64,000 nt of DNA from an uncultured Gammaproteobacteria bacterium (lineage in GTDB: Bacteria > Patescibacteriota > Microgenomatia > Levybacterales > UBA12049): the NCBI GenBank assembly GCA_964408485.1, contig CAYOZJ010000002.1:69235-133234 (forward strand). The letters run 5' to 3'. Made by a program: the position numbers and the translations under genes. The notes beneath the pieces were generated by a model. It saw nothing but the letters and a program-made list of their open reading frames with translations, was not told where the DNA came from and ran no database searches. Shown in pieces: positions 4,342-38,393 of the stretch (position 1 is the stretch's first letter; each line of letters starts with the position of its first letter).

Positions 4342-4908
4342 ATGAAGAAAATAATACTTATCTCGCTTCTTCTCTTCTTTTTTGTCTTTCCTAAAAATAG
4401 TATTGTTACGGCAGATGACAGCAGTATGAGCGCAACAGCGTCTCCAACAGCAGTGGTTGTTAATGACTATACACTTCCATACCCAGGTCTCTTACCAGAT
4501 AATCCCTTATATGTTATTAAGACAATTCGAGATAGAATTGTTACTTTTTTTATTTCTGATCCATTGAAGAAATCGTCATTTAACTTGCTTCAATCAGACA
4601 AGCGACTTGAAGCATCGTGGTATCTTTTGAAAAAGGATGTCAAGAATAATAGTCTTGCTCTTTCAACACTCTCTAAATCCACAACGTACTTTTCGCTATC
4701 TATTGACGAGTTACATAAAGCGCAGGGAAGCGGGGAAGACATAAATGCGCAGATAGATAGTATAAAAAATGCCATTGCCAAACATGTTGCTGTTGCCCAT
4801 GAAATGCTTTCTCTTCCAGGACTTGGAAATAAAAATGGATTTGCTCAGGAAGTAAAACGACTTGATAATATTCAGAAAACTGTATCGGGGTTTAGCCCTG
4901 AGGAGTAG
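4342..4908 (+). CDS. secreted protein, DUF5667-like
   Basis: Signal peptide MKKIILISLLLFFFVFP. The motif YTLPYPGLLPDNPLYVIK is, from memory, characteristic of DUF5667 proteins common in CPR genomes. The ORF track starts at 4303, but 4342 follows a better SD-like GGAAAG. Confidence 0.5.
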   Translation: MKKIILISLLLFFFVFPKNSIVTADDSSMSATASPTAVVVNDYTLPYPGLLPDNPLYVIKTIRDRIVTFFISDPLKKSSFNLLQSDKRLEASWYLLKKDVKNNSLALSTLSKSTTYFSLSIDELHKAQGSGEDINAQIDSIKNAIAKHVAVAHEMLSLPGLGNKNGFAQEVKRLDNIQKTVSGFSPEE

Positions 4909-5055
4909 GCTGACTTTAAGAAATTGACTAGAATCTGTTAACGAAGAAGAAGAGAATTTTCCACAAAAAAGAAACTGAGGCTAGAAAAAGGACTGACCCA
5001 ATTTGATACACTAATTGCTAGTTGACGCCACAGATTTAGGGTCCTAATATCGATA

Positions 5056-5082
5056 AGGACACTACATATGGGAAGTACTGTC
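5056..5082 (+). promoter_or_regulatory. candidate NrdR-box-like imperfect palindrome upstream of nrdR-nrdJ
   Basis: GGACACTACATATGGGAAGTACTGTCC partially matches the NrdR box consensus acaCwAtATaTwGtgt and lies ~35 bp upstream of the nrdR ATG. I found only one copy. Confidence 0.25.
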
Positions 5083-5113
5083 CAGGGCAGAAGGAGATCA
5101 TTAACAATTCATT

Positions 5114-5566
5114 ATGAAATGTCCATACTGCGGTAATAACCAAACAGAGGTTGTAGAAACACGAGATAACGAAGAGCTAGAGACAATACGCAGAAGACGC
5201 AGTTGCAGTAATTGTGGCAAACGCTTTACCACATATGAGCGCATAGAAAATGTCGATTTATATGTACGGAAAAAAGATGGAAGGCGTGAGCTTTTTAATA
5301 GGGATAAATTAAGAAAAGGTGTGCTAACATCTACAGAGAAAACAAAAATTTCTGTAGAGACAGCAGAAAAAATCGTTGCAGATATAGAGCAAGAGATTCG
5401 TGCAAAAGGAATACTTGAAATAAAAAGTAAAGAAATAGGGGACATGGTTGCAAAACGCTTGAAAAAATTAGACAAAGTAGCATATATTCGCTTTGCCAGT
5501 GTTTTTAAACGCTTTGTCGATGTAGAAGATTTTGAAAAAGAAGTAAGAAAGTTGGTAATTAAATAA
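5114..5566 (+). CDS. nrdR: transcriptional repressor NrdR
   Basis: MKCPYCGNNQTEVVETRD...CSNCGKRFTTYERIE zinc ribbon plus ATP-cone. Confidence 0.95.
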   Translation: MKCPYCGNNQTEVVETRDNEELETIRRRRSCSNCGKRFTTYERIENVDLYVRKKDGRRELFNRDKLRKGVLTSTEKTKISVETAEKIVADIEQEIRAKGILEIKSKEIGDMVAKRLKKLDKVAYIRFASVFKRFVDVEDFEKEVRKLVIK

Positions 5567-5567
5567 T

Positions 5568-8024
5568 ATGGGTGATACAAAAAAAACATTGGTTCCAAAT
5601 TTTGCAGGGACACTGCGCGAAACTGTCTTTATGGATAGATATGCCTTAAAAGATAAAGATGGTTTGCCAATTGAGCATTCCCCTGAAGAGACATGGAAAA
5701 GAGTTGCATGGGGTATTGCGCAAAATGAAAAGCCAAAAGACCGAAAAGTTTGGGAAAAACGATTCTATGATGCAATGTCTGACTTTAAATTTGTTCCTGG
5801 GGGGAGAATTCTCTCAGGAGCAGGGACAGATTATCAGGTAACCTACTTTAATTGTTTTGTTATTCCATCTCCTAGGGATTCACGAGGTGCAATTTTAGAT
5901 ACGCTTAAGCAAATGGTAGAAATTATGGCAAGAGGCGGCGGCGTTGGATTTAATTTATCTTCACTCAGGCCACGAGGTGCACGAGTAAAAAAAGTAAATG
6001 GAACGTCCTCAGGTCCTACAAATTGGGCAGCACTTTATTCTGTCGCCACAAGAGACATTGTTCAGCAAGCAGGGACAAGACGCGGTGCACTCATGCTTAT
6101 GCTGTGGGATTGGCATCCAGATGTTGAGGAGTTTATTACAGTCAAACAAGATCTTTCTAAAATTAATGGAGCCAACCTTTCTGTTTGTCTGTCAGATGCA
6201 TTTATGGAGGCTGTCAAAGCAGATGGCGACTGGGAATTAAAATATCCTGATTTGGATGATCCAAAGTACGATAAATACTGGGACGGAGAATTGGATAAAT
6301 GGATCGAGCGGGGAGGAAAAGTAAAAGTCTACAAAACAATCAAAGCAAAATACCTCTGGGATCTTATTTGTACTGCTGCATGGAGAAGTGCAGAGCCAGG
6401 TCTTCATTTCTTGGATAGGTCCAATAAAAGAAGCAATACGCACTATTTTGAAAGACTAGTTGCAACAAATCCGTGCGGTGAGCAGCCACTTGGTGCATGG
6501 GCTGTTTGTAATTTAGGCGCAATGAATTTGTCTGCGTACGTGAAAGATTCTGACTTGGCAAAAGATATTCCCGGATGGTTTGATTACGAATCATTTGGAA
6601 AAGACGTTAAAGTTGCGATGCGATTTATGGATAATGTGATTGATAAAACGTATTACTTCTTTAAAGACAATGAAGACTGTGCAAAAGATATTAGACGTAC
6701 TGGGCTTGGTATCATGGGGTTAGGAGATGCACTAATAAAGATGCATTTGCCATATGGGTCTGAAGAGTCGCTTCCTGTTATTGAAAAAATCTTTCAAGTC
6801 CTTAGAGACAATTCCTATCAGGCATCAGTTGAGGTAGCAAAGGAAAAAGGAGCATTTCCGCATTTCCAAAAAGAGGAGTTTCTTAAGGGGTATCACATTA
6901 AAGCATTGCCTCAGGATATAAGGGATGGTATTGCAAAGTATGGTATTCGAAACGGTGTCCTCTTAACGATTGCACCAACTGGGACGACATCTCTTGTTTC
7001 CGGCGTCTCTAGCGGGGTTGAGCCAGTGTATGAATTTGCATTCAAAAGACATGACAGGTTGGGTGAGCATATGATTTATCATCCACTTCTTGAAGAATGG
7101 TTAGCCTCTCATCAGGGGCAGGATAGGCCAAAATATTTTGTCTCAGCAAATGATTTGACACCAATGGAACATGTGAAAGTTCAAGCAATCGCGCAGGAAT
7201 ATATTGATTCCTCAATTTCCAAAACAGTGAATGGTCCAAAAACAGATTCTATTGAAGATGTGAAAGAACTGTATATGGCAGCATATGATTATGGTCTGAA
7301 GGGCGTTACGTATATGCGAGATGGATCAAGGCAAGGAGTTTTGGAAAGAGTAGATGATAAAAAGGAAGAAACAGCGGCAGTAGTTCAACCAACACTTCCA
7401 ATGATGCCTATGCTTTCCAGGCCTCAAAAAATTGAAGGAGTGACCTATCAAACAGAAACCCCAATGGGAAGTACATTTATTACGATTAATCACACAGAAG
7501 ATGGACAACCTTTTGAAGTCTTTATTAATATTGGTAAAAGTGGCAGTGATGTTTTCGGAATGGCAGAGGCACTTGGTCGAATGATTTCAACAAACCTTCG
7601 CCTTAATAGTGTTTTGGCTCCAAGAGAGAGAATCAAGCAAATTGTTGCTCAATTAACTGGTATTGGTGGATCAAGAAGTGTTGGATTTGGAGCGAATAGA
7701 GTTAAAAGTCTCCCCGATGCAATTGCAAAAATATTAGCAACACATTACAACTTGTCAGTAAATGGCAAAGTAGAGGATAGGCAAGTTATTACAAAAGTTA
7801 TGACCGATGGTGTTGTTCCAGCTCCTGAAACACATATCTCAGCAGAAGAACATGCGTCAGCAGAAGAAGCACATCCAGTAGCGCAGTTAACACTTGAAGG
7901 GAAAATGGAAGCAGCATCGACGAATACTTCTTTATATGATATTTGTCCAGAATGTGGCGTGAGCGCGTTTGCATATGAAGACGGATGTAAAAAATGCTAT
8001 AGCTGTGGGCATTCAGAATGCTGA
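5568..8024 (+). CDS. nrdJ: class II (adenosylcobalamin-dependent) ribonucleotide reductase with C-terminal zinc ribbon
   Basis: Active-site TNPCGEQPL plus long RNR large-subunit homology. C-terminal CPECG...CKKCYSCGHSEC zinc ribbon. Immediately follows nrdR. Confidence 0.9.
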   Translation: MGDTKKTLVPNFAGTLRETVFMDRYALKDKDGLPIEHSPEETWKRVAWGIAQNEKPKDRKVWEKRFYDAMSDFKFVPGGRILSGAGTDYQVTYFNCFVIPSPRDSRGAILDTLKQMVEIMARGGGVGFNLSSLRPRGARVKKVNGTSSGPTNWAALYSVATRDIVQQAGTRRGALMLMLWDWHPDVEEFITVKQDLSKINGANLSVCLSDAFMEAVKADGDWELKYPDLDDPKYDKYWDGELDKWIERGGKVKVYKTIKAKYLWDLICTAAWRSAEPGLHFLDRSNKRSNTHYFERLVATNPCGEQPLGAWAVCNLGAMNLSAYVKDSDLAKDIPGWFDYESFGKDVKVAMRFMDNVIDKTYYFFKDNEDCAKDIRRTGLGIMGLGDALIKMHLPYGSEESLPVIEKIFQVLRDNSYQASVEVAKEKGAFPHFQKEEFLKGYHIKALPQDIRDGIAKYGIRNGVLLTIAPTGTTSLVSGVSSGVEPVYEFAFKRHDRLGEHMIYHPLLEEWLASHQGQDRPKYFVSANDLTPMEHVKVQAIAQEYIDSSISKTVNGPKTDSIEDVKELYMAAYDYGLKGVTYMRDGSRQGVLERVDDKKEETAAVVQPTLPMMPMLSRPQKIEGVTYQTETPMGSTFITINHTEDGQPFEVFINIGKSGSDVFGMAEALGRMISTNLRLNSVLAPRERIKQIVAQLTGIGGSRSVGFGANRVKSLPDAIAKILATHYNLSVNGKVEDRQVITKVMTDGVVPAPETHISAEEHASAEEAHPVAQLTLEGKMEAASTNTSLYDICPECGVSAFAYEDGCKKCYSCGHSEC

Positions 8025-8222
8025 TGCATTCATAGCAGTATGCAGTAAGAATTATGGGCATATTGCGTAGAGCATAAAGCATAATTCATATATTTATACA
8101 TTGGGCAAACACCGTGTAATTCGGTGGAAGTGCCGCTACTGTAAATCCAGAAAACCATGTATAAATCATTCTCGAGCAAGAACGTTTTTGGGCACGTCCT
8201 TCTCGAGAGAGAGGGATTTTTT

Positions 8223-8885
8223 ATGGAATTAATCAAAAAAGTAATACAACAATGGAGTAAATCGATTGCTATTATTCTTTTTCTTGTCGTTGCGTTTTTT
8301 GCAGGCAATATTACTGTGTTCTCAAAAAGTGACCACCCGCAAGTTTTAGGAGCAAAAACCCAGATTACTCCTATTCCCACACGTACGCCGATTCCAACAA
8401 CAGTGCCAGTTACGATTGTTAACAATATTATTGTTCCAACATCAGTTCCATTAGCCATATCCCCAACACCTGTTCAGTTACCAATCGTTATCGTTGTTAC
8501 CCCCACGCCAACCCCGATTGAATCGGGGCCAACTATTTCACCCACAGAAATACCTATACCAACTGTTACGCCAACACCAGTTTCTCAAACAATAACCATA
8601 GATGTTGACTATGCCGGTGAGCATGCAGAAAGTATCTATACCACTTCAATTGCTGCAGGGGAAAGTGCATGGCAAGCTGTACAAGATGCAATCGGGTTAG
8701 CAAATATTCACTACACGGATTATGGAGGAAGCCTTGGAATATTCATTACCGGATTCAACGGAACAGACGCTAACTCAAGTCAATACTATGATTTCCAAGT
8801 AAATGGAATCTCGTCTAATGTAGGAGTTTCCTCATATACCGCTCAGGATAAAGACACCTTGAAGTTTGTGTTAACCGGTTTCTAA
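8223..8885 (+). CDS. secreted Pro/Thr-linker protein with C-terminal DUF4430-like (transcobalamin-like B12-binding) domain
   Basis: TM/signal IAIILFLVVAFFAG, a long P/T/V linker, and a C-terminal domain ITIDVDYAGE...WQAVQDA...HYTDYGGSLGIFITGFNG...YYDFQVNG that matches the DUF4430 fold family. Starts at ATG 8223 after GAGAGGGATTTTTT. Confidence 0.5.
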   Translation: MELIKKVIQQWSKSIAIILFLVVAFFAGNITVFSKSDHPQVLGAKTQITPIPTRTPIPTTVPVTIVNNIIVPTSVPLAISPTPVQLPIVIVVTPTPTPIESGPTISPTEIPIPTVTPTPVSQTITIDVDYAGEHAESIYTTSIAAGESAWQAVQDAIGLANIHYTDYGGSLGIFITGFNGTDANSSQYYDFQVNGISSNVGVSSYTAQDKDTLKFVLTGF

Positions 8886-8936
8886 TAGGTTCGACAAGCT
8901 CACTATTTATCCTGAGTTTATCGAAGGATTTCTAAT

Positions 8937-9449
8937 ATGAAAAATATTCTCGCTGTGTCTTTTATTATTCTCTCAGCAGTATTATTAAGGCTTGTTCCGC
9001 ATGTGCCTAACTTTGCGCCGATTGGGGCAATGGCACTTTTTGGAGGAGCCCATCTTCAAAAGCGATATGCATTTTTTCTTCCGTTACTAGTAATGGTTTT
9101 ATCAGATATTTTCTTAGGATTTAGCGCAAGTACGCCTTCGGTATATGTAAGTTTTCTTATTATCGTTGGTATTGGTATGTGGTTGAGAAATCATACCAGC
9201 ATTCAAAATGTAATCGTAGCATCGCTTATATCCTCGACTATCTTTTATCTGCTTACTAATTTTAATTTTTGGTATCCTCAAGCTTTATATCCGCGAACGT
9301 TTTCGGGCATGCTTGATTCCTATATCATGGCCCTTCCATTCTTCAGGCCAACAATATTTGGGGATTTGTTTTATAACGGACTCTTCTTTGGTGGGTATGC
9401 ACTGGTTCAAAAAATTCTTTTCAAACAAGTAAAAGTATATGAGCAGTAA
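8937..9449 (+). CDS. small polytopic membrane protein, possible ECF-type S-component (cobalamin uptake?)
   Basis: 170 aa with ~5-6 hydrophobic helices. Sits between the DUF4430 gene and the PduO-type adenosyltransferase gene. No diagnostic motif. Confidence 0.35.
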   Translation: MKNILAVSFIILSAVLLRLVPHVPNFAPIGAMALFGGAHLQKRYAFFLPLLVMVLSDIFLGFSASTPSVYVSFLIIVGIGMWLRNHTSIQNVIVASLISSTIFYLLTNFNFWYPQALYPRTFSGMLDSYIMALPFFRPTIFGDLFYNGLFFGGYALVQKILFKQVKVYEQ

Positions 9450-9990
9450 GATTTATACTAAAACAGGGGATAAAGGGAAGACATCACTTTTTGATGGGAC
9501 ACGGGTCAGCAAAGATAATATTAGACTTGAAACATATGGCACATTTGATGAGTTGAGTAGTTATCTAGGGGTTGCACAGTCATTTTCGAAAGATAAAAAA
9601 TTAATAAAAGATTTGCAATCTATTCAAAAGGATTTACTTGATATTGGAGCATGCCTTGCAAATCCGCATAACACCCCTAGCAGAACGTTTTTAACGTACC
9701 TTGATGCAAGAGTCATCTCCTTTGAAAAAAGTATTGATGAGCAGACTCAGAAACTTAAACCATTAACTAGCTTTATTCTCTTTACTGGGAATAGTGCTAG
9801 TGCTTTTTTGCAATTGTCTCGTTCTGTTGCAAGACGATCTGAGAGACGACTTACTACTCTTTCTCAGAAAACCCCTATTGCTGCTGAATTTATCCGTTAT
9901 TTTAATAGACTTTCAGATTTACTCTATACCATGGGGCGTTTTGCCAATAGAACAACAAAAAAAGAAGTTATTTGGGAGCCTTTTAAGTAA
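9439..9990 (+). CDS. PduO-type ATP:cob(I)alamin adenosyltransferase
   Basis: N-terminal YTKTGDKGKTSL motif typical of PduO/MMAB family. Confidence 0.85.
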   Translation: MSSKIYTKTGDKGKTSLFDGTRVSKDNIRLETYGTFDELSSYLGVAQSFSKDKKLIKDLQSIQKDLLDIGACLANPHNTPSRTFLTYLDARVISFEKSIDEQTQKLKPLTSFILFTGNSASAFLQLSRSVARRSERRLTTLSQKTPIAAEFIRYFNRLSDLLYTMGRFANRTTKKEVIWEPFK

Positions 9991-9992
9991 AT

Positions 9993-11252
9993 ATGGAGCA
10001 GAGTCCACACATGCAGAAAGTACAGGAAATTCATAGTGCTGTAACAGCAAGAAGAAACAAATTCCTTACCGAATATCAAAATCCACGACAAGGGAAGAGG
10101 GCACTTACTTATGAGCCAGCTCTGGATAGAGAAGTGTATAAGGTACTTAAAAGGTATGAACACGATCCTGAAAAAAATGCCTATGTGCACGTGCAGAATG
10201 AGTTAAATGCCTATACAGAGTTTCAGGTAGAAACATTTATTGGAGAACGGCTCAACGTTGGATTATCTTCATTTCGGTACGATTTGCGAGACGGCGAAAT
10301 GTATGGACAAGGAATGAATGAATCCCTTCTAGACATGATTTCCAGGGGGAGGGCATATCGAGAGCAAAGAGTAAAAGATGTTGATATACCAAGACAGGAA
10401 GCAGAAATTGTTCAATTTACCAAAATTCAAGATGTTATGACTAGCCCTCAGGCTGAGCTAGGTACGACCATTGTATCCATCTCCCCGCCTGGCGGAGAAG
10501 GATCGGTCTACGCGCATAATTTTTATGACGTTTTTGTTTTATCCGAAGATAGTGAAAAAAATCGATACGTTGCTGCACGCAGATATGCATCGGGATTATC
10601 ATTAGACGAGTATAAACAACTTGCTTCTCACCTTTCTGCGGGATATATGAATGATTATCGAGGTGAATCATTGGATAGTTACTTCTTATCCAAGCCATTA
10701 GTACTTGCCCAAAGCTCTTTGCTGTCTGGTGATCCAGAAGCAATTCATAAATTCCTTCATAAGGGTCATGAGTTTTTATCAAGTGAAGACTTTAATTATG
10801 TTAAGCGAGCAATTGCAGGATTAATCACAAGTTACGTTAATACACTTGTTGAGAATCCATCAGACGAGTTGCTGCTCAATAGTACATTGAACGTTATTAT
10901 GAATGAAGCAGATACTGTGGCTGATAATCTCAAGTATCCTTCGCGGCGTATTATAGAAATTCATGACCGATCAGTACGGGGATCACTTACTAGGGAGGAT
11001 ATACTTTCTGAAGGAAAGAAAAAAGTAAGGTCTGTTGCAACCGGATGTGGCGAATCTACCGGATTTGAGGTTGGAGGAGAGAATAGGTTGGGAAGTAATA
11101 TGTCTTCATTTAACAGTATGTACGATTTTGGTACAGATACACTTGGATCGCGAACATTTCATTGTCCAGATTGTGGAGAGATGAATCTGCGTCCATTAGA
11201 TGAGACTCTAAAAGAGTGTCAAAACTGTCATAGTCCAAAAGTTGCATGTTGA
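9993..11252 (+). CDS. hypothetical protein with C-terminal CxxC...CxxC zinc ribbon
   Basis: 419-aa ORF ending HCPDCGEMNLRPLDETLKECQNCHSPKVAC. No other recognisable domain. Confidence 0.5.
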   Translation: MEQSPHMQKVQEIHSAVTARRNKFLTEYQNPRQGKRALTYEPALDREVYKVLKRYEHDPEKNAYVHVQNELNAYTEFQVETFIGERLNVGLSSFRYDLRDGEMYGQGMNESLLDMISRGRAYREQRVKDVDIPRQEAEIVQFTKIQDVMTSPQAELGTTIVSISPPGGEGSVYAHNFYDVFVLSEDSEKNRYVAARRYASGLSLDEYKQLASHLSAGYMNDYRGESLDSYFLSKPLVLAQSSLLSGDPEAIHKFLHKGHEFLSSEDFNYVKRAIAGLITSYVNTLVENPSDELLLNSTLNVIMNEADTVADNLKYPSRRIIEIHDRSVRGSLTREDILSEGKKKVRSVATGCGESTGFEVGGENRLGSNMSSFNSMYDFGTDTLGSRTFHCPDCGEMNLRPLDETLKECQNCHSPKVAC

Positions 11253-11303
11253 CGGAGACAACATGCAATCCTGAGCGTAGTCGAAGGATCTCCTCCTTAT
11301 TTT

Positions 11304-11466
11304 ATGGAAGAATGTGTTGAGTGTTTTAAAATTAAATGTCGCGGATGCGGGTGGGAGCCAAATGAAGAGGAAGTTTTACTGGTTCAGTCTGGGAAATTAA
11401 CAACATGCCCTGAGTGTGGGTGGAGACCAGGAGAAATTCCTAATTATCATAGTCAGGATCTATAGC
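11304..11466 (+). CDS. small zinc-ribbon protein (two CxxC pairs)
   Basis: Not in the ORF track (<60 aa). My translation is MEECVECFKIKCRGCGWEPNEEEVLLVQSGKLTTCPECGWRPGEIPNYHSQDL. Confidence 0.35.
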
Positions 11467-11685
11467 ATCACTCGCTAATTCGAGAATACTACTTCTCATT
11501 TTTCGTCCTATTCGTTTCGGAAAAGTTTCAATCGGAGCTTCTTGAAAATCCGTTATAGACTGACTAAACCAATCTTCAGCGAGACTTCTTCTTTCTTCTA
11601 CCCCCAAACGTCTTACATGAGGTTCTAAGGCAGCCCTTGTTGCACCTCTAAGAAGTTTTCGTACTGGACTTTCATTGTATACCAT
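11440..11685 (-). CDS. hypothetical small protein
   Basis: 81-aa ORF, antisense to nothing else, charged. Confidence 0.3.
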   Translation of the reverse strand: MVYNESPVRKLLRGATRAALEPHVRRLGVEERRSLAEDWFSQSITDFQEAPIETFPKRIGRKMRSSILELASDAIDPDYDN

Positions 11686-11799: not shown

Positions 11800-12267
11800 A
11801 TGGATCCCAAGACTCAGCAACCAATTCAAAATCCTGTCCCACAACAACCAACGCAACCGCCTATTCAGCAGCCGGTTAGACAACCAGTTGCTCCAATGCC
11901 AGCACAACCAATAAGTGGAGGATCCAAAGAAGCACCTGTCCCACTAGGAGCAGCACAAGAATGGGTTAGTCCGTCTACTCCTGAAGTTGTTATGCCAAAA
12001 GAAGTGTCAGAAGCAGGAGTTGAAGCAACACCGGTAATACAACCTATTCCTCAGCAGGTCCAGCAGCTTGGCGTACAGCATGCAAAAGAAGCAACACCTG
12101 TAGAATCTGTTGTTGCTGAGCCTTTAGGACTAAAAACCTCTCGTTCTGTTTTGGATCAGTTAAAGGCTGCGCATAAGAGCGTAAAGGAGTCTTTTTCTTG
12201 GCTTATTCGTCTTATTCTGAAAGAGCAAGAGAAAAAAGAAAACCATACAACATCAGGATATAATTAA
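11800..12267 (+). CDS. Pro/Gln-rich low-complexity protein upstream of coupling-ATPase gene
   Basis: QPIQNPVPQQPTQPPIQQPVRQPVAPMPAQP repeats. Stop is 4 bp before the next gene. Confidence 0.4.
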   Translation: MDPKTQQPIQNPVPQQPTQPPIQQPVRQPVAPMPAQPISGGSKEAPVPLGAAQEWVSPSTPEVVMPKEVSEAGVEATPVIQPIPQQVQQLGVQHAKEATPVESVVAEPLGLKTSRSVLDQLKAAHKSVKESFSWLIRLILKEQEKKENHTTSGYN

Positions 12268-12270
12268 GTT

Positions 12271-14640
12271 ATGCAAAACCTCGCCCAATTAAATGTATTT
12301 GATCTTTTGTCTTCCTTGGCAGCATCGTTTTTGATGCTTGGCTTACTCGGCGTTATTGGTTACTTTGGCGGTTATGCGCTTTTTCTGTGGTATAAGTGGA
12401 GGGATAGAGAGAAGTCCTCCCTAGACAGTGTTCTTCTACAAGTTTCTATGCCTCGGGATAATGAAATAAAAATCGATGCAGCAGAGCAGTTATTTGCCGG
12501 ATTTGCGTCTTTGCATAAGAGTGGAAGATTTGCATTTCTTCACCCACAACAACATATTTCTTTTGAATTGGTTGGCAAGCCAGGAGATATTCGCTACTAC
12601 ATTCATGTGCCAAAAAAACTTCGAGATTTAGTTGAAAAACAAATTAACGGGTCATATCCAGATGCAGACATAACGGTTGTTGATGAAAATGATGTAAAGC
12701 AAAAAGGTGTTATTGGTAATGAGTACAACATTTTTACGGAAGATGGGAAGGTTGCATTTGCTTCGTGGCGACCAAAAGGATCAGGATATTCACCAATGAA
12801 AATTTATAAAGACATGGCAGTTGATGGAATGAGTCTTCTCACGTCCACTATGGCAAAAATGCAAGAAGGTGAGGGAATGGCATTGCAAATTCTCCTTAGT
12901 CCAGCAGATAGCACGTGGAAAAAAGCAGGACGAGCGCACATTGGGAAAGTGAAAAAAGCAGAAAGTAATCCTGAGAAAGCAAGTTATTCTGCAGATCCAA
13001 AAGAGCTTGAGGCAATAGAAAATAAAATCAGTAAGGCAGGATTTGAGGTTATTATACGGGCTGTTGTGTGTTCATCAACCATGGAGGCGGCAAAAGGACA
13101 TTTAGATAATGTTGGAAGTGCTTTGGCAATGTTTGGCGGAGCAAATTCACTCACAAAAAATAAGCACCGCTTTAAAGGACTTTTTATGCAGGATTTTATT
13201 TATCGGTACTGGCCAATGTATAAAGGGACAGGAATTCTATCTTCAGAAGAATTGGCAACAATCTTCCATTTTCCAAATAAGCAAATAACAACTCCTGGCA
13301 TTTTCTGGCTTACATCCAAGCGTGCCCCCGCGCCAACACAAATTCCAGACACTGGACTCTTTCTTGGAAGAAGTACCTTTCGTGGTCTTTCACGACCTGT
13401 CCATATGCTTCAAGAAGATAGAGCTCGTCATATGTATATCATTGGTAAGACAGGTACGGGAAAATCGCAATTTCTTAAGCAAATGATTGTCCAGGATATA
13501 GAAAATGGTGAAGGTATCTGCGTGATTGATCCTCACGGTGACTTAATCGAGGAAATTCTTCTTCGTGTGCCGCCAAGTAGGGCAGAGGATGTAATTGTTT
13601 TTGATCCATCAGATACCCAGCGACCAATGGGAATCAATATTATGGAGGCATATACAGAGGATGAGAAGCACTACATGGTGTCTAGTATTATTGGCTTGTT
13701 TTACAAACTGTACGATCCAAATAAGACTGGTATTGTCGGTCCTCGACTTGAGCATGGCATTCGAAATGCAATGCTTACAGTTATGGCAGAACCAGGGAAC
13801 ACATTTATTGAAGTGCAACGTGCTATGACCGACAGCAATTTTGTCCAAGAGCTTTTACCAAAAGTGAATGACCCTATTATTAAGAGGTACTGGACTGACC
13901 AGATTGCTCAGACAAGTGATTTCCATAAGTCAGAAGTTTTGGATTACACCGTGTCGAAGTTTGGCCGCTTTATTACCAATAAATTAATGAGAAATATTAT
14001 TGGGCAATCTAAATCAGCATTTGATTTTAGAAAAATCATGGATGAGAAAAAGATTTTTCTTGTTAATTTGTCCAAAGGAAAAGTAGGGGAGGAAAATTCC
14101 CAATTCCTAGGTCTTATTCTTGTACCAAAGCTTTTAACAGCGGCAATGAGTAGACAAGATATTCCATATGATCAGCGTAAGGATTTTTATTTGTATGTTG
14201 ATGAATTTCAGAATTTTGCTACCCCCGACTTTGCTGCAATCCTTTCTGAGGCCCGTAAATACAAGCTTAATCTTATTGTTGCAAATCAGTTTACTGGGCA
14301 GATGGAAGATGATGTGAAGAATGCTATTTTTGGTAATGTGGGTACAATTGCATCTTTCAGAGTTGGTGTTCAGGATGCAAATTTTCTGCAGCATGAGTTT
14401 CAACCAACCTTTGCGGAGACAGACTTAATTAATGTAGACAGATTTAACGCGTATATTCGAACCGTTGTCCACGGTGAGCCTGTTAGCTCTTTTTCAATTG
14501 ATGTTACAAAAGATATGGCAAAGGAAAAAGCATTGGATAATCCAAGAGTTGCTGAGTTGATTAAGGAACTGTCTCGACTTAAGTATGCAAAAGACATTCA
14601 TCAGGTAGAGGCAGAAATTTCAGCGCGCGCGCGTCTGTAA
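12271..14640 (+). CDS. VirD4/TraG/TrwB-like type IV coupling protein family ATPase (membrane-anchored)
   Basis: N-terminal TM helices, Walker A IGKTGTGKSQF, Walker B LYVDEFQNF, then ARKYKLNLIVANQFTGQ typical of the T4CP/DUF87 family. Confidence 0.6.
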   Translation: MQNLAQLNVFDLLSSLAASFLMLGLLGVIGYFGGYALFLWYKWRDREKSSLDSVLLQVSMPRDNEIKIDAAEQLFAGFASLHKSGRFAFLHPQQHISFELVGKPGDIRYYIHVPKKLRDLVEKQINGSYPDADITVVDENDVKQKGVIGNEYNIFTEDGKVAFASWRPKGSGYSPMKIYKDMAVDGMSLLTSTMAKMQEGEGMALQILLSPADSTWKKAGRAHIGKVKKAESNPEKASYSADPKELEAIENKISKAGFEVIIRAVVCSSTMEAAKGHLDNVGSALAMFGGANSLTKNKHRFKGLFMQDFIYRYWPMYKGTGILSSEELATIFHFPNKQITTPGIFWLTSKRAPAPTQIPDTGLFLGRSTFRGLSRPVHMLQEDRARHMYIIGKTGTGKSQFLKQMIVQDIENGEGICVIDPHGDLIEEILLRVPPSRAEDVIVFDPSDTQRPMGINIMEAYTEDEKHYMVSSIIGLFYKLYDPNKTGIVGPRLEHGIRNAMLTVMAEPGNTFIEVQRAMTDSNFVQELLPKVNDPIIKRYWTDQIAQTSDFHKSEVLDYTVSKFGRFITNKLMRNIIGQSKSAFDFRKIMDEKKIFLVNLSKGKVGEENSQFLGLILVPKLLTAAMSRQDIPYDQRKDFYLYVDEFQNFATPDFAAILSEARKYKLNLIVANQFTGQMEDDVKNAIFGNVGTIASFRVGVQDANFLQHEFQPTFAETDLINVDRFNAYIRTVVHGEPVSSFSIDVTKDMAKEKALDNPRVAELIKELSRLKYAKDIHQVEAEISARARL

Positions 14641-16184: not shown

Positions 16185-18041
16185 CTAGGCTGCAAGCATT
16201 CTCCTATGGGTGTTTTCTTGTTTTCCTAATTCATATTCAATAATCCCATCAATAACTGCTGATTCAAGTGCATCAAAATCTCCCATGGATGCTATCGGAG
16301 CGCGCTCATTTGGTCCATGCTCGCCTTTATACTGGGGGCCGTTACTTGCCGCATGTAAAATAAAATCAGGACCAAAAAGTTCCCACAATTTATCCCGAAG
16401 AATCTTGATTTCAACGCCTGCATGAATTGTCGTTGTTTTGAATTTTTTATCTGATGGCAATGCTTTTGCTGCAGCTTTCTCTTCTATCTCTACAATTGGA
16501 TCAGAAAAGTCCGGTTGCCATGGGTAACCGATAAGCTCTGGGATAAAAGTAGTAGTTGCATCAAATTCATTCAAAACATTTCTAATAGCAGTTGCACGAA
16601 TACCATCATCTCCAAGCTGCTCGTTTTGTGAGCTTCTGGACATGATTGTTATCTGTATGCCTTCATCGGTAGTGTGTATGACAGAAAGATTGGATGACGT
16701 TTCGATTGCTTCTGGATCATTTGGACTCCATTCAATACCGAGTACACCATCTGGATTTAATGTATCTAAAAGCGCAAGTGTTTTATTTGTTGCAGCAGAT
16801 GTCATTGGAGGCATATTTTGTGTTTCTTTTCTTTCCTCAACGCGTCTGACCGTCAGAACATCTACTTCATCATCTTCTGCAATATCAGGATGTTCTTCAG
16901 AAAATCGTTTTAAGTCAACAACAGCTTGTGCATTTTTTACAGTTACCATTTCCTGTATTTGAGAAAGTATCTCATCTTCTTTGCCTTCTGGTACTGCTAA
17001 TACGAGATTTCTCACATCTATAGGAATTCCGTTGTGAGCATGTCCTCCATCCATTGCAACAAGGCGAATATCTTCTAAGCCCTCAATATCTTTTAATTGT
17101 CTAAACATTTCTGTAGCCTCAGTTATCTTATTCCATCTGCCGTTACCAATTCTGTCCCGCTCATCTCCAGAATGTCCACCTTGTGTGCCAAAAAGTCCTA
17201 GTGAAAGATGGGTAAATCCTTCGGGCATGGAAGGTTCTCGTGGTGTTTCAAGTGTTACTTTCGATCCAGTAAGTCCTGCATCACCAACAATACCGTTGAG
17301 TCGAGAATTATCTATATTAAGCAGATACCATTCTTTAGGCAATGGTTTGTCACCAAGTAGCTGTTCTCTTGTAAAAGAAAATGCTTTTGCGCCAAGAAGT
17401 CCAGGTTCTTCATCAGAGGTAGCATCTAAGTTGAGATCGGGATGTGCTTTATTTTCTCGTGAGACATGCTCAAGATATGCCATTCCCCAGGAAAGGGCCC
17501 ATGCGCAGTCAATACCTGATGATGTTTCAATACCTGACATCCAAAGGATAGGTTTGCCTGTTTTTTTATCAGGTATTTCCTTGAGCTGAAGAGCAACTCC
17601 TGCAACTGAAGGCTCGAGAAAGCCTACGTTTGCATCACTTACCATATCGTAATGACCTTGCATGTGAATTGCAGGCATTGCTTCAAATGGTTCTCCGCCA
17701 TAGGCTGCCAGATGCATATTAACATTGCCTGCTTTATCAATGCGGAAAGAAAGTTTTTGTTGCATCTCAGGATTTGTATTAAATTGATCTGTATATGCAG
17801 AGAAATATCCCATCATACCCAACTTATCTCCCGGTCCTCGGGGGATAAGAGAGATTTCTGTTGAGTAAAGTTCCAAGGCTCGAAGCGCAACAGGGGAGAG
17901 ATTCAGACGCTCTGGATTACCTGGTGTGAGTTCGTTTCTTCGTTTTACTTCACCGAAAACGGCGAGATTATTTGCGAGGTATTGCTCGGGTTGTAATCTT
18001 TTTCCGGCCTCTGGTCCTTGTTGTATTCTTAGTCTTTCCAT
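16185..18041 (-). CDS. M20-family (PepD/aminoacyl-histidine dipeptidase-like) metallopeptidase homolog, extended
   Basis: HMQGHYDMV (compare PepD HLDMV), SDEEPGLLGAKAF (metal-binding EE) and GGHSGDE (PepD GGHSG). At 618 aa it is longer than canonical PepD. Confidence 0.4.
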   Translation of the reverse strand: MERLRIQQGPEAGKRLQPEQYLANNLAVFGEVKRRNELTPGNPERLNLSPVALRALELYSTEISLIPRGPGDKLGMMGYFSAYTDQFNTNPEMQQKLSFRIDKAGNVNMHLAAYGGEPFEAMPAIHMQGHYDMVSDANVGFLEPSVAGVALQLKEIPDKKTGKPILWMSGIETSSGIDCAWALSWGMAYLEHVSRENKAHPDLNLDATSDEEPGLLGAKAFSFTREQLLGDKPLPKEWYLLNIDNSRLNGIVGDAGLTGSKVTLETPREPSMPEGFTHLSLGLFGTQGGHSGDERDRIGNGRWNKITEATEMFRQLKDIEGLEDIRLVAMDGGHAHNGIPIDVRNLVLAVPEGKEDEILSQIQEMVTVKNAQAVVDLKRFSEEHPDIAEDDEVDVLTVRRVEERKETQNMPPMTSAATNKTLALLDTLNPDGVLGIEWSPNDPEAIETSSNLSVIHTTDEGIQITIMSRSSQNEQLGDDGIRATAIRNVLNEFDATTTFIPELIGYPWQPDFSDPIVEIEEKAAAKALPSDKKFKTTTIHAGVEIKILRDKLWELFGPDFILHAASNGPQYKGEHGPNERAPIASMGDFDALESAVIDGIIEYELGKQENTHRRMLAA

Positions 18042-18058
18042 AGTGTTTTAATAAAAAA

Positions 18059-18086
18059 ATCTCCCTTTGGACAGGGAGATGTATTT
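18059..18086 (-). terminator. rho-independent terminator (minus strand) after recombinase gene
   Basis: ATCTCCCTGTCCAAAGGGAGAT hairpin followed on the minus strand by TTTTTTTATTA. Confidence 0.55.
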
Positions 18087-18145
18087 GCTTCAACAATCTC
18101 CCTTACTAGGAAAGAATGATTGAACATGCTGCAAAATGGTGCATA

Positions 18146-19015: not shown

Positions 19016-19048
19016 AGCCTATAATATCATTTAATTTACCATAAGTCA

Positions 19049-19384
19049 ATGAAAAGAATTATTTACTTTGCAGCCATTGTTTTCCTCCTTACCGTAATTG
19101 CTAACCTATCTTTTTCCATTGTAACCCTTTGGTCAAAGCGAGATGTCTTAACGCAGGCACAATCGCAGTTGATAAAAGAGCAGGAAGAGCAGAGAAATCT
19201 TAAAAAACAGTGGAAACAGGTTAATTCACCTAATTTTGTAGAACAACAGGCACGAGATAAGCTCTTCTTAGGCAAACCAGGGGAGAGTTTGGTGCTTATT
19301 CCAACAGCATCGCCTTCAGCTGTGCAGCAGCAGTCTGCTAGCCAAGAACCTGTGCTTGAGCAGTGGTGGAAGCTATTCTTCTAG
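19049..19384 (+). CDS. ftsB: septum formation initiator (FtsB/DivIC family)
   Basis: N-terminal TM, coiled coil, and FVEQQARDKLFLGKPGE motif. Confidence 0.75.
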   Translation: MKRIIYFAAIVFLLTVIANLSFSIVTLWSKRDVLTQAQSQLIKEQEEQRNLKKQWKQVNSPNFVEQQARDKLFLGKPGESLVLIPTASPSAVQQQSASQEPVLEQWWKLFF

Positions 19385-38300: not shown

Positions 38301-38393
38301 AGAAGAAAATTGCTCTATTGCTGAATTACTAAATTGTTCTAGAAAAACAATATAACAATTTAAGAATTTAACAATTAGTATAGTGAGATTGCT

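What the first reader, a model, noticed from the sequence alone, without database searches (positions are those of the whole stretch)
5056..9990. Adenosylcobalamin supply cluster beside the B12-dependent RNR: NrdR-NrdJ, a DUF4430-like protein, a small membrane protein and a PduO adenosyltransferase
The only ribonucleotide reductase in the window is class II (AdoCbl-dependent). Immediately downstream are a secreted DUF4430-like protein (a domain family linked to cobalamin binding), a 170-aa polytopic membrane protein (possible ECF S-component-like B12 importer) and a PduO-type ATP:cob(I)alamin adenosyltransferase. For an organism with minimal biosynthetic capacity, this would form a self-contained scavenge-B12, adenosylate, make-dNTPs module under NrdR control.
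Basis: partly seen in the sequence, partly recalled or inferred. Interest (0 to 1): 0.6.

Follow-up and report, generated by a model that had tools for sequence, protein, structure and literature searches.

The report
Riboswitch-controlled vitamin B12 salvage operon
A reduced-genome (Patescibacteria) bacterium keeps its B12-dependent DNA-precursor enzyme next to a B12-sensing RNA switch that controls genes to capture, import and activate the vitamin, including a candidate new B12 transporter family (DUF6580) and a fully uncharacterised protein family.

Summary
All five genes exist: NrdR, class II NrdJ, a DUF4430 protein, a 170-aa membrane protein and a PduO adenosyltransferase. The predicted cobalamin riboswitch is present at 8093-8165 (AdoCbl-II, RF01689). 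A terminator/SD-sequestering hairpin follows it, so the DUF4430 gene most likely starts at 8223, not 8157.

The DUF4430 domain is homologous to the B12-binding beta-domain of haptocorrin and transcobalamin. The membrane protein is neither BtuM nor CbrT. It is DUF6580, with an ECF S-component-like fold and a weak sequence link to CbrT. It has no cysteine and no AxxxA motif.

Across phyla, 43 of 65 DUF6580 loci scanned with Rfam carry a B12 riboswitch on the same strand. In Bacteroidota and Ignavibacteriota the order is riboswitch, TonB-dependent receptor, DUF6580. DUF6580 is therefore a strong candidate for a third S-component-like cobalamin transporter family, and the searchable literature does not mention it.

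The unit extends beyond the finding. ORF419 (9993-11252) has no Pfam match and no structural neighbour, and carries six conserved cysteines. It always follows PduO and often has its own B12 riboswitch. NrdR control of the B12 genes is unproven, and genome-wide absence of other RNRs or an ECF module could not be tested.

The parts
5027..5074 (+). Candidate NrdR boxes upstream of nrdR: 5059-5074 ACACTACATATGGGAA (11/16 matches to the consensus) and a weak partner at 5027-5042 (9/16), 32 bp apart.
   Evidence: for the window; clear box pairs 30-33 bp apart upstream of nrdR in 7 of 28 related loci, against 0.6% of random 320-nt windows. Inconclusive for this window.
5114..5566 (+). nrdR, the transcriptional repressor of RNR genes (zinc ribbon plus ATP-cone).
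   Evidence: TIGR00244, 177.7 bits (cutoff 124.65); PF22811 and PF03477.
5568..8024 (+). nrdJ, class II (adenosylcobalamin-dependent) ribonucleotide reductase with a TSCPD domain and a C-terminal Cys-rich zinc-ribbon tail.
   Evidence: TIGR02504, 581 bits (cutoff 399.95); PF02867, PF00317 and PF12637; tail sequence.
8093..8165 (+). Cobalamin riboswitch aptamer, class II (Rfam AdoCbl-II, RF01689).
   Evidence: 44.3 bits against a gathering score of 36.5. Homologous elements sit at the same position in relatives. Covariation: 4 of 5 pairs of the P5-like hairpin show 8-11 double compensatory changes among 21 sequences.
8166..8222 (+). Expression platform. The hairpin at 8196-8217 (GTCCTTCTC-GAGA-GAGAGGGAT) is followed by a run of six T. 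Its 3' arm contains the GAGGGA Shine-Dalgarno sequence of the ATG at 8223. An alternative, mutually exclusive hairpin spans 8168-8212.
   Evidence: This is the only terminator-like site in 4800-11500. MFE folds (z = -2.2 and -2.6). Coupling to ligand binding is inferred.
8223..8885 (+). Membrane-anchored DUF4430 protein: an N-terminal TM helix or signal anchor, a Pro/Thr-rich linker and a C-terminal transcobalamin beta-domain-like module. Proposed extracellular corrinoid-capture protein. Public gene calls use the 242-aa form that starts at 8157.
   Evidence: PF14478, 31.8 bits (gathering score 23.8). All 12 syntenic proteins match PF14478, best E=7.5e-20. Their profile hits haptocorrin 4KKI at E=1.5e-6, the TC2 beta-domain 5NO0 at 0.012 and 3U7Z at 0.027. 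Alignment.
8937..9449 (+). DUF6580 membrane protein, 170 aa with about six helices. Proposed S-component-like cobalamin translocator.
   Evidence: PF20221, 173.9 bits. The only PDB sequence hit for the profile is CbrT, 6FNP_A (E=0.023 for the single sequence, where one other weak unrelated hit also appeared; E=0.0078 for the profile, where it is the sole hit). AF2 model pLDDT 84.9. The only Foldseek hits with TM above 0.45 are the ECF S-components FolT and PanT. B12 riboswitch on the same strand in 43 of 65 loci.
9439..9990 (+). PduO-type ATP:cob(I)alamin adenosyltransferase. It overlaps the DUF6580 gene by 11 nt.
   Evidence: TIGR00636, 162.6 bits (cutoff 108.45); PF01923, 177.4 bits.
9993..11252 (+). 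ORF419, an uncharacterised cytoplasmic protein family. It has the motifs TFIGERLNVGLS, SPPGxEGSxYxHNFYDVF, RRYASGLS and TGCGxSGGF, a C-terminal CPxCG...CQxCG zinc ribbon and a terminal Cys. Proposed accessory factor for cobalamin processing or adenosylation.
   Evidence: No Pfam or NCBIfam match. 575 family representatives at E<=1e-3. AF2 pLDDT 82.7, with no PDB fold neighbour (TM below 0.2). Always directly after PduO. Its own B12 riboswitch lies immediately upstream in at least 12 of 19 loci.

Best explanation
This is a cobalamin salvage operon placed directly behind the enzyme that consumes its product. nrdR and nrdJ encode the repressor and the AdoCbl-dependent ribonucleotide reductase. 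A class-II cobalamin riboswitch sits 68 nt after nrdJ. When a corrinoid is bound, it favours a hairpin that both terminates transcription and buries the Shine-Dalgarno sequence of the next gene.

When B12 is scarce, four tightly packed genes are expressed:
(1) A membrane-anchored protein whose C-terminal DUF4430 domain is homologous to the beta-domain of transcobalamin and haptocorrin. It captures corrinoids outside the cell.
(2) DUF6580, a small membrane protein of about six helices with an ECF S-component-like fold. It carries the corrinoid across the membrane, most likely without a dedicated ECF module, in the manner of BtuM.
(3) A PduO-type adenosyltransferase that converts the imported cobalamin to AdoCbl for NrdJ.
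(4) ORF419, a Cys-rich cytoplasmic protein that works with PduO. It may process or reduce incoming cobalamin, or hand AdoCbl on to NrdJ.

Shown here: gene identities, the riboswitch and its covariation, DUF4430 homology to B12 carriers, the S-component-like fold, and the cross-phylum association of DUF6580 and ORF419 with B12 riboswitches. Inferred: the transported substrate, the way transport is energised, the OFF-switch logic, and the role of ORF419.
For: - Family assignments exceed curated cutoffs.
- RF01689 lies at 8093-8165, followed by the only terminator-like hairpin of the region, which overlaps the SD sequence. Compensatory changes occur among 21 homologous elements.
- Gene spacing is operon-like: gaps of 51 nt, -11 nt and 2 nt.
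- The DUF4430 profile hits the haptocorrin and transcobalamin beta-domains, and 12 of 12 syntenic proteins match PF14478.
- For DUF6580, the only PDB sequence hit of the profile is the B12 S-component CbrT, and the only structural hits with TM 0.48-0.60 are the ECF S-components FolT and PanT.
- Of 80 genome loci, 34 have NrdJ and 25 have PduO within 6 kb.
- 43 of 65 loci scanned with Rfam have a B12 riboswitch, all on the DUF6580 strand. Adding a lineage profile gives 54 of 80.
- In Bacteroidota, Ignavibacteriota and Verrucomicrobiota the order is riboswitch, TonB-dependent receptor, DUF6580 in 11 loci tested (in L044 the riboswitch lies directly before DUF6580 and a second one precedes the receptor). 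L061 adds a BtuF-like binding protein. CPR loci L004 and L029 add transcobalamin-like alpha-toroid plus DUF4430 proteins.
- ORF419 homologs always follow PduO and often carry their own riboswitch.
Against: - No biochemical data exist for any DUF6580, bacterial DUF4430 or ORF419 protein.
- The sequence link from DUF6580 to CbrT is marginal (E about 0.01 in a PDB-sized database), and the Foldseek E-values are weak (0.6) despite TM 0.6.
- B12 riboswitches also control cobalt transporters and B12-independent isozymes, so riboswitch control alone does not fix the substrate.
- 26 of 80 loci show no riboswitch within 6 kb. Fifteen loci were not scanned with Rfam, and 14 of them are among those 26; some are also short contigs.
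- In several CPR loci the only Rfam-level riboswitch lies after PduO, so DUF6580 and PduO are not always demonstrably under it. The lineage profile does find a second upstream copy in most of these.
- The whole region is syntenic in this lineage, so adjacency alone is weak evidence.
- Ligand selectivity of class-II aptamers varies (PMC6158498), so the corrinoid form that is sensed is unknown.
Confidence: 0.78

Rival explanations
1. DUF6580 is a conventional ECF S-component like CbrT. It binds B12 but needs a shared EcfA/A'/T energising module encoded elsewhere in the genome to transport it.
For: The only PDB sequence relative of the profile is CbrT, which is inactive without its ECF module. 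The fold matches the ECF S-components FolT and PanT. One JGI homolog is annotated as the riboflavin S-component FmnP. Group II ECF systems encode their modules away from the S-component genes (my own knowledge of the family).
Against: No ECF module is present in the 64 kb window. Only 7 of 81 loci have any ABC-ATPase-like ORF within 6 kb, and none shows an EcfA/A'/T arrangement. The helix-1 AxxxA motif used to dock onto EcfT is present in 1 of 39 family members (the role of the motif is from my own knowledge). The family is common next to btuB-like receptors in Bacteroidota and Ignavibacteriota, which is the context described for the solitary BtuM (PMC6072759).
Confidence: 0.25
2. DUF6580 transports or handles something other than an intact corrinoid, such as cobalt or a lower-ligand or precursor compound. 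Alternatively, it is a membrane anchor or processing enzyme and not a translocator.
For: B12 riboswitches commonly regulate cobalt transporters as well (my own knowledge, from comparative genomics of B12 regulons). No binding or transport data exist.
Against: Its neighbours are corrinoid-specific: DUF4430 and transcobalamin-like proteins, BtuF-like Peripla_BP_2, TonB-dependent receptors, PduO and NrdJ. No cob/cbi biosynthesis genes that would need cobalt are present in the window. The S-component fold is a vitamin-translocating fold.
Confidence: 0.08
3. The linkage is incidental conserved synteny. The B12 genes simply lie next to nrdJ in one lineage and have no functional coupling to it.
For: The whole stretch from CMK and DUF5667 through nrdR and nrdJ to a ~790-aa TraG-like ATPase is syntenic in related Microgenomates and Levyibacteriota.
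Against: The riboswitch ties the downstream genes to B12 status directly. DUF6580 is riboswitch-linked in distant phyla with entirely different neighbours. PduO makes exactly the cofactor form that NrdJ uses (established enzymology of the two families). NrdJ lies within 6 kb of DUF6580 in 34 of 80 loci, including Saccharibacteria, Berkelbacteria, Doudnabacteria and Woykebacteria.
Confidence: 0.03
4. ORF419 is not a B12-handling protein. It is instead a B12-independent backup function that is repressed when B12 is plentiful, in the way metE or nrdAB/nrdDG sit under B12 riboswitches elsewhere. One example would be an alternative route to deoxynucleotides.
For: In many relatives ORF419 has its own dedicated riboswitch, separate from the one before the uptake genes. 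That is the typical pattern for B12-independent isozymes (my own knowledge). It is cytoplasmic and has conserved catalytic-looking residues: E85, R86, R134, E138, D179, R197 and C352.
Against: It is almost invariably fused into an operon with PduO, with 2 nt between the genes in the window. That arrangement argues for a role in the same pathway. It shows no similarity to any RNR or nucleotide-salvage family.
Confidence: 0.12

Closest known systems
BtuM (Thiobacillus denitrificans; PMC6072759), a solitary S-component-like vitamin B12 transporter
   Same: A small inner-membrane protein of about 20 kDa with an S-component-like fold. It is encoded without an ECF module, and in Gram-negative relatives its gene lies next to a btuB-type TonB-dependent receptor under B12 regulation.
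   Different: No detectable sequence similarity: no BtuM chain appeared among the PDB hits at E<=10. The essential cobalt-ligating cysteine (Cys80) is absent, since the window protein has no Cys and none is conserved in the family. Cysteine-mediated decyanation cannot therefore occur. The taxonomic range also differs: CPR, Bacteroidota, Ignavibacteriota and Verrucomicrobiota, as against alpha-, beta- and gamma-proteobacteria.
ECF-CbrT (Lactobacillus delbrueckii; PDB 6FNP; PMC5997447), an ECF-type ABC importer for cobalamin
   Same: CbrT is the only solved protein with detectable sequence similarity to DUF6580 (helices 1-3, E=0.008 with the profile). It has the same fold class and the same proposed substrate.
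   Different: CbrT is inactive without EcfAA'T. No ECF module is encoded near DUF6580 genes, and the AxxxA docking motif is missing. The similarity is marginal and DUF6580 is a separate Pfam family.
Transcobalamin, haptocorrin and intrinsic factor (eukaryotic B12 carriers; PDB 4KKI, 2BB5, 5NO0)
   Same: The C-terminal domain of the 8223-8885 protein is homologous to their beta-domain (DUF4430). Relatives L004 and L029 also encode an alpha/alpha-toroid domain like their alpha-domain.
   Different: The window protein has only the beta-domain, tethered to the membrane by a TM helix and a Pro/Thr-rich linker. Corrinoid binding by a lone bacterial DUF4430 domain has not been shown in the searchable literature.
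Class-II cobalamin riboswitches (Rfam RF01689; env8 and env50 Cbl-IIa; PMC6158498)
   Same: Compact aptamer of about 75 nt with the conserved GCCGCNACUG core. It scores above the Rfam gathering threshold and sits in a 5' leader before B12 uptake genes.
   Different: Six consensus positions at the P1/J1-3 junction are deleted, so the element that tunes AdoCbl versus MeCbl selectivity cannot be read. It lies inside an operon directly after nrdJ, not at a clear promoter-proximal 5' UTR.
PduO/MMAB-type adenosyltransferase systems with accessory proteins (PduS reductase; human MMACHC and MMADHC chaperones)
   Same: The PduO gene is paired with a conserved accessory gene (ORF419). ORF419 has conserved cysteines that could provide thiol or Co-S chemistry, as in MMADHC or BtuM (PMC12501144, PMC6072759).
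   Different: ORF419 shows no sequence or fold similarity to PduS, MMACHC, MMADHC or any solved structure. Any functional analogy is an inference from gene context only.

Membership tests
NrdR (TIGR00244) | N-terminal zinc ribbon plus an ATP-cone, full length, above the equivalog cutoff | tested here: met
   177.7 bits against 124.65; PF22811 over residues 1-42 and PF03477 over 50-134.
NrdR regulon | Paired 16-bp NrdR boxes about 31-32 bp apart upstream of the regulated RNR operon | tested here: inconclusive
   The window has one site with 11/16 matches (5059) and one with 9/16 (5027), 32 bp apart. Strong pairs occur in 7 of 28 relatives against a 0.6% background.
Class II RNR NrdJ (TIGR02504) | RNR alpha barrel above the NrdJ equivalog cutoff | tested here: met
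   581 bits against 399.95. The class I model TIGR02506 reaches only 341.1 bits against its cutoff of 341.05, far below the NrdJ score.
Class II RNR NrdJ (TIGR02504) | AdoCbl-dependent catalysis | not testable with these tools
   Requires an enzyme assay.
PduO-type adenosyltransferase (TIGR00636 / PF01923) | Full-length match above the curated cutoff | tested here: met
   162.6 bits against 108.45; PF01923, 177.4 bits, profile positions 1-170 of 171.
Cobalamin riboswitch class II (RF01689) | Covariance-model score above the gathering threshold over the full model | tested here: met
   44.3 bits against 36.5, model positions 1-81.
Cobalamin riboswitch class II (RF01689) | Conserved structure supported by compensatory changes in homologs | tested here: met
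   Among 21 elements, 6 of 8 predicted pairs have double changes, with 8-11 sequences changed per pair in the P5-like helix. P1 and P3 were not resolved by the MAFFT/RNAalifold alignment.
Cobalamin riboswitch class II (RF01689) | Ligand binding and the regulatory response (OFF switch) | not testable with these tools
   A terminator/SD-sequestering hairpin and an alternative hairpin are predicted. The coupling to ligand binding is inferred.
DUF4430 / transcobalamin beta-domain (PF14478) | Domain match above the Pfam gathering score | tested here: met
   31.6-31.8 bits against 23.8 for the window protein. 12 of 12 syntenic proteins match, best E=7.5e-20.
DUF4430 / transcobalamin beta-domain (PF14478) | Homology to the cobalamin-binding beta-domain of solved carriers | tested here: met
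   The profile hits 4KKI residues 332-433 at E=1.5e-6, 5NO0 at 0.012 and 3U7Z at 0.027.
DUF4430 / transcobalamin beta-domain (PF14478) | Corrinoid binding | not testable with these tools
   No experimental report on a bacterial DUF4430 protein was found.
ECF S-component (CbrT-like) | Six-helix S-component fold | tested here: met
   AF2 pLDDT 84.9. Foldseek gives FolT 4HUQ_S at TM 0.60 and probability 0.96, 4Z7F at TM 0.53, and PanT at TM 0.48-0.49. All other hits have TM below 0.27. E-values are weak, at 0.6 or above.
ECF S-component (CbrT-like) | Significant sequence relationship to CbrT | tested here: inconclusive
   The profile hits only 6FNP_A, but at E=0.0078 (E=0.023 for the single sequence), and the alignment covers helices 1-3 only.
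ECF S-component (CbrT-like) | AxxxA motif in helix 1 for docking onto EcfT (the role of the motif is from my own knowledge) | tested here: not met
   Present in 1 of 39 aligned family members and absent in the window protein.
ECF S-component (CbrT-like) | Cognate EcfA/A'/T module in the genome | tested here: inconclusive
   None in the 64 kb window. ABC-ATPase-like ORFs lie within 6 kb in only 7 of 81 loci. Whole genomes could not be searched.
BtuM | Essential cysteine (Cys80) acting as a cobalt ligand and decyanation catalyst (PMC6072759) | tested here: not met
   The window protein has no cysteine. Most family members have 0-1, and none is conserved.
BtuM | Sequence similarity to BtuM | tested here: not met
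   No BtuM chain appeared among the PDB hits at E<=10, with either the single sequence or the profile.
BtuM | Co-localisation with btuB in Gram-negatives and absence of an ECF module | tested here: met
   Gene context only: riboswitch, TonB-dependent receptor, DUF6580 in 11 non-CPR loci, with no adjacent ECF module.

The most novel reading that the evidence does not exclude
Two uncharacterised families complete a B12 salvage route that is widespread but undescribed.
(i) DUF6580 is a third, cysteine-free family of S-component-like cobalamin transporters. It acts without an ECF module and takes substrate from interchangeable outer partners: DUF4430 or transcobalamin-like proteins in CPR, and BtuB, BtuF-like or DUF5074 proteins in Bacteroidota and Ignavibacteriota.
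(ii) ORF419 represents a new fold and a new cobalamin-processing enzyme or chaperone. It could be a thiol-dependent reductase or dealkylase that prepares cob(II)/cob(I)alamin for PduO, or an escort that hands AdoCbl to NrdJ. In either case it would be a bacterial functional analogue of the human MMACHC/MMADHC step.
Probability: 0.3. Interest if true: 0.82.

Novelty: new variant of a known kind. Interest (0 to 1): 0.64.

Why it matters
About half of B12-auxotrophic bacteria lack the known inner-membrane importer BtuCDF, and only CbrT and BtuM have been characterised as alternatives (PMC6072759). A riboswitch-linked family found across Patescibacteria, Bacteroidota, Ignavibacteriota and Verrucomicrobiota would fill part of that gap, and it can be tested directly with the established E. 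coli delta-FEC complementation assay.

For CPR bacteria, DNA synthesis in this window appears to hang on a scavenged cofactor. The operon therefore defines a concrete metabolic dependency on the community or host, and suggests a possible handle for cultivation.

ORF419 is a family of several hundred sequence clusters with no annotation. It is locked to PduO and to B12 riboswitches, which makes it a good candidate for a missing step in bacterial cobalamin processing.

Tried and rejected
- Foldseek of ORF419 against the PDB returned nothing meaningful: all TM-scores were below 0.2, and weak PAS/GAF/IclR-like partial hits were disregarded.
- The PDB sequence-profile search for ORF419 hit only generic zinc ribbons such as L37ae.
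- I considered that the ORF419 tail is homologous to the NrdJ C-terminal Cys-rich tail. A pairwise BLAST shows only zinc-ribbon-level similarity (E=0.01, 22 aa), so this is kept as a resemblance only.
- I considered a kissing-loop contact between aptamer loop L5 (UAAUUC) and GAAUUA at 8226-8231, just after the start codon. It is a 6-nt AU-rich match seen by eye and was not tested, so I make no claim.
- A strict scan for NrdR-box pairs did not find a pair in the window. Relaxed scoring gives one fair site and one weak site.
- The promoter scan found no convincing sigma-70 site between nrdJ and the aptamer. Whether the B12 genes have their own promoter or depend on read-through from nrdRJ remains open.
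- Literature searches for DUF6580, PF20221, and Patescibacteria combined with B12 and riboswitch found nothing relevant.
- The exact-sequence look-up returned only a 2.9 kb Logan contig, and no source gives these proteins a name, so the organism is placed only through its relatives (Microgenomates/Levyibacteriota-like Patescibacteria).
- My running tally of riboswitch-positive loci was miscounted during the work as 33/48 and then 44/66. The recount gives 43 of 65 distinct loci.

Full report
**1. What is in the sequence**

Between 5114 and 11252, six + strand ORFs are packed with gaps of 1, 132 (198 if the DUF4430 gene starts at 8223), 51, -11 and 2 nt. Five of them exceed curated thresholds:
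- NrdR, 5114-5566: TIGR00244, 177.7 bits against a cutoff of 124.65.
- NrdJ, class II RNR, 5568-8024: TIGR02504, 581 bits against 399.95, with a TSCPD domain and a Cys-rich zinc-ribbon tail.
- DUF4430 protein: PF14478, 31.6 bits against a gathering score of 23.8, covering only the last ~60 residues.
- A 170-aa membrane protein, 8937-9449: PF20221 (DUF6580), 173.9 bits. It matches no annotated ECF, BtuM or CbrT family.
- PduO-type adenosyltransferase, 9439-9990: TIGR00636, 162.6 bits against 108.45.

The sixth ORF, ORF419 (9993-11252), has no Pfam or NCBIfam match. Composition is uniform across the window at about 39% GC. The gene content is that of a reduced-genome Patescibacteria (CPR) organism. 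The closest relatives are Microgenomates/Levyibacteriota-like MAGs.

**2.

An Rfam scan of the whole window returned two tRNAs and one cis-regulatory hit. That hit is AdoCbl-II (RF01689) at 8093-8165 on the + strand, 44.3 bits against a gathering score of 36.5, E=2e-7 (alignment). It lies 68 nt after the nrdJ stop codon.

The only terminator-like site between 4800 and 11500 follows it directly. A 9-bp hairpin at 8196-8217 is followed by a run of six T and then an ATG at 8223. The 3' arm of that hairpin is GAGAGGGAU, so it contains the Shine-Dalgarno sequence for that ATG. An alternative hairpin at 8168-8212 uses the same CUUCUCGAG segment. This is the usual anatomy of an OFF switch that acts on transcription and translation together.

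The annotated start at 8157 lies inside the aptamer. The gene therefore most likely starts at 8223 (220 aa). The L003 ortholog starts a similar distance, about 55 nt, after its aptamer.

The RNA is not a chance match. Twenty further elements of the same class occur at equivalent places in related loci. In an alignment of all 21, the P5-like helix keeps pairing through 8-11 double substitutions at four of its five pairs, and the GUGCCGCNACUG core is invariant. Class-II aptamers range from AdoCbl-selective to MeCbl-selective (PMC6158498). Six consensus positions at the P1/J1-3 junction are deleted here, so I cannot say which corrinoid form is sensed.

**3. DUF4430**

The assignment holds and can be sharpened. 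Twelve proteins that occupy the slot between the riboswitch and DUF6580 in different genomes share one architecture: an N-terminal TM helix, a variable linker (Pro/Thr-rich in the window) and a conserved C-terminal domain of about 90 aa. All 12 match PF14478, best E=7.5e-20.

Their profile hits the beta-domain of human haptocorrin (4KKI residues 332-433, E=1.5e-6). It also hits the isolated transcobalamin beta-domain (5NO0, 0.012) and the bacterial DUF4430 structure 3U7Z (0.027). In CPR loci L004 and L029, the same slot also holds proteins with a prenyltransferase-like alpha/alpha-toroid domain, and in L029 that domain is fused to DUF4430. Those are the two domains that make up transcobalamin-type carriers.

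The protein is better described as membrane-tethered than as secreted. I found no experimental work on bacterial DUF4430 proteins.

**4. The membrane protein**

Its only related solved sequence is chain A of 6FNP, the B12-specific S-component CbrT of the ECF-CbrT transporter (PMC5997447). The hit has E=0.023 for the single sequence and E=0.0078 for a 39-member profile, and it covers helices 1-3. The AlphaFold model is confident (pLDDT 84.9, pTM 0.81). All Foldseek hits with a meaningful TM-score (0.48-0.60) are the ECF S-components FolT and PanT, and everything else is below 0.27. The E-values are weak, so the fold assignment is likely but not proven.

The protein fails the hallmark features of both named B12 families.
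- BtuM depends on Cys80 as a cobalt ligand (PMC6072759). The window protein has no cysteine, and none is conserved in the family.
- The helix-1 AxxxA motif, which ECF-dependent S-components use to dock onto EcfT (my own knowledge), occurs in 1 of 39 members.

No ECF module is encoded in the window, where ZnuABC is the only ABC system. Only 7 of 81 loci have any ABC-ATPase-like ORF within 6 kb.

**5. Comparative genomics gives the decisive evidence**

A scan of one genome per species found at least 586 DUF6580 loci, and 80 were retrieved. Within 6 kb of the DUF6580 gene, 34 have NrdJ, 29 have NrdR and 25 have PduO.

Rfam found a B12-class riboswitch (RF01689, RF00174 or RF01482) at gathering score in 43 of the 65 distinct loci scanned. 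Every one lies on the DUF6580 strand (recount). A lineage-specific sequence profile raises this to 54 of 80.

The association is independent of nrdJ and of CPR. In Bacteroidota, Ignavibacteriota and Verrucomicrobiota, 11 loci tested run classical Cobalamin riboswitch, then TonB-dependent receptor (Plug plus barrel), then DUF6580. Individual loci add further detail:
- L044 has a riboswitch directly in front of DUF6580 and a second one in front of the receptor.
- L061 has a BtuF-like Peripla_BP_2 protein next to DUF6580, with no BtuC or BtuD.
- L040 and L044 have DUF5074 beta-propeller-type proteins.

This is the same kind of context that led to the prediction of BtuM (PMC6072759). I conclude that DUF6580 is most likely a corrinoid translocator of the cytoplasmic membrane. 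It works like BtuM or CbrT but is a member of neither family. NCBI already labels some members 'DUF6580 family putative transport protein'. No paper in the searchable library mentions the family or ties it to B12.

**6. The unit extends beyond the finding: ORF419**

ORF419 starts 2 nt after the PduO stop codon. Word-indexed search found only 36 relatives, all unnamed. An exhaustive profile search found 575 cluster representatives at E<=1e-3 and 275 at E<=1e-30.

Residues conserved across the family are E85, R86, G119, R134, E138, S164, Y173, D179 and R197, plus six cysteines. These are C352 in a TGCGxSGGF loop, C391/C394/C409/C412 of a zinc ribbon, and the C-terminal residue C419. The AlphaFold model is confident (pLDDT 82.7, pTM 0.74) but has no structural neighbour in the PDB.

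In 19 loci that carry a family member (15 of the DUF6580 loci, one of them a duplicate of the window, plus the window and four loci fetched through ORF419 homologs), the gene lies downstream of a B12 riboswitch on the same strand in every case.
- In at least 12 of them the riboswitch is immediately upstream of ORF419: L005, L010, L011, L014, L019, L022, L031, L038, L045, L049, L082 and L083. Several of these loci carry a second riboswitch before the uptake genes or PduO.
- When sampled through ORF419 itself, the gene always directly follows PduO, even where DUF6580 is absent, as in L083 and L084.

ORF419 is therefore a B12-regulated partner of the adenosyltransferase. Its chemistry is unknown. 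The conserved cysteines, and a tail that resembles the NrdJ tail only at the zinc-ribbon level, suggest thiol or redox chemistry on cobalamin. That is an inference.

**7. Regulation**

Two candidate NrdR boxes lie upstream of nrdR, at 5059 (11/16 matches) and 5027 (9/16), 32 bp apart. Clear pairs occur in 7 of 28 relatives against a background of 0.6%. I found no convincing promoter between nrdJ and the aptamer. The B12 genes may therefore be read through from the nrdRJ promoter and gated by the riboswitch, but this is unproven. The regulator that can be demonstrated for the salvage genes is the riboswitch, not NrdR.

**8. Limits**

Only 64 kb of a 145.7 kb contig was available, and whole genomes could not be scanned. 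The absence of other RNR classes, of cob/cbi genes and of an ECF module is therefore established for the window only. No function was tested experimentally. Fifteen loci, mostly short non-CPR contigs, were not scanned with Rfam.

**9. Verdict**

The finding is real and its interpretation is essentially correct. The known parts are ordinary: NrdR, NrdJ, PduO and a class-II cobalamin riboswitch. The value lies in two uncharacterised families that the riboswitch ties to B12.
- DUF6580 is a probable third kind of S-component-like cobalamin transporter with a wide phyletic range. I rate it a new variant of a known kind.
- ORF419 is a PduO-coupled Cys-rich protein with no recognisable fold, and its function is open.

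Noticed in passing
window 9993-11252: ORF419 lies just outside the finding's end coordinate. It is a 419-aa protein with no Pfam, NCBIfam or PDB relative. Its family has 575 representatives, always follows PduO, and frequently carries its own B12 riboswitch.
   Followed up: yes
window 11304-11465: A small 53-aa ORF made of two CxxC pairs (MEECVECFKIKCRGCGW...TCPECGWRPGE). Its CPECGWRPGE motif resembles the C-terminal end of a divergent ORF419 homolog, P0156 (...CPDCGWRPGES). It could be a stand-alone zinc-ribbon partner or a remnant.
   Followed up: no
window 8157-8222: Public gene calls (P0303, 242 aa) start the DUF4430 gene at 8157, inside the riboswitch aptamer. The ATG at 8223, which has an SD sequence, is the more likely start. 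This is probably a systematic mis-annotation where riboswitches precede short leaders.
   Followed up: partly
window 7935-8024 (NrdJ C-terminus): NrdJ ends in a Cys-rich zinc-ribbon tail (CPECG...CKKCYSCGHSEC) with a terminal Cys. ORF419 ends similarly (CPDCG...CQNC...VAC). Pairwise similarity is only generic (E=0.01).
   Followed up: partly
window 11800-14640, and the same position in L003, L005, L006, L010, L014, L020, L022, L031 and L082-L084: A ~155-aa Pro/Gln-rich protein and a ~790-aa membrane ATPase (DUF87/HerA, TrwB/TraG-like, DUF8128) follow the B12 cluster in conserved synteny. Where the riboswitch sits after PduO, they lie downstream of it on the same strand. Whether they are co-regulated is unknown.
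   Followed up: no
L019 4167-4234 and 4307-4386; also L005, L010, L014, L015, L038, L041, L082 and L083: L019 has tandem class-II cobalamin riboswitch copies in front of one gene. The other loci have two separate riboswitches within one gene string, one before the uptake genes or PduO and one before ORF419.
   Followed up: partly
L061 4213-4905 and L047 5215-5976: A Diphthami_syn_2 (PF01902, ATP-pyrophosphatase-like) protein sits inside the riboswitch, TonB-receptor, DUF6580 operon of an Ignavibacteriae MAG and a Verrucomicrobia MAG. Its link to B12 is unexplained.
   Followed up: no
L004 4567-5985 and L029 4199-5929: CPR proteins with a prenyltransferase-like alpha/alpha-toroid domain lie under a B12 riboswitch next to DUF6580. 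In L029 the toroid is fused to DUF4430. Together these are the two domains of eukaryotic transcobalamin-type carriers.
   Followed up: partly
L034 5965-6810: The DUF6580 homolog of a Berkelbacteria chromosome is 281 aa, about 100 aa longer than usual. It may carry an extra domain, or the ORF may be mis-extended.
   Followed up: no
window 37557-39101 (- strand): An F420-0:gamma-glutamyl ligase-like gene (PF01996) lies next to a Vut_1 putative vitamin uptake transporter (PF02592). This may be another cofactor-salvage pair in this reduced genome.
   Followed up: no
window 16185-21517 (- strand): A tyrosine recombinase (18146-19015) is flanked by two large ORFs: a 618-aa ORF with no Pfam match and a 710-aa ORF with only a metallophosphoesterase domain. 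They lie in a stretch where GC and AT skew dip. This could be an integrated element.
   Followed up: no
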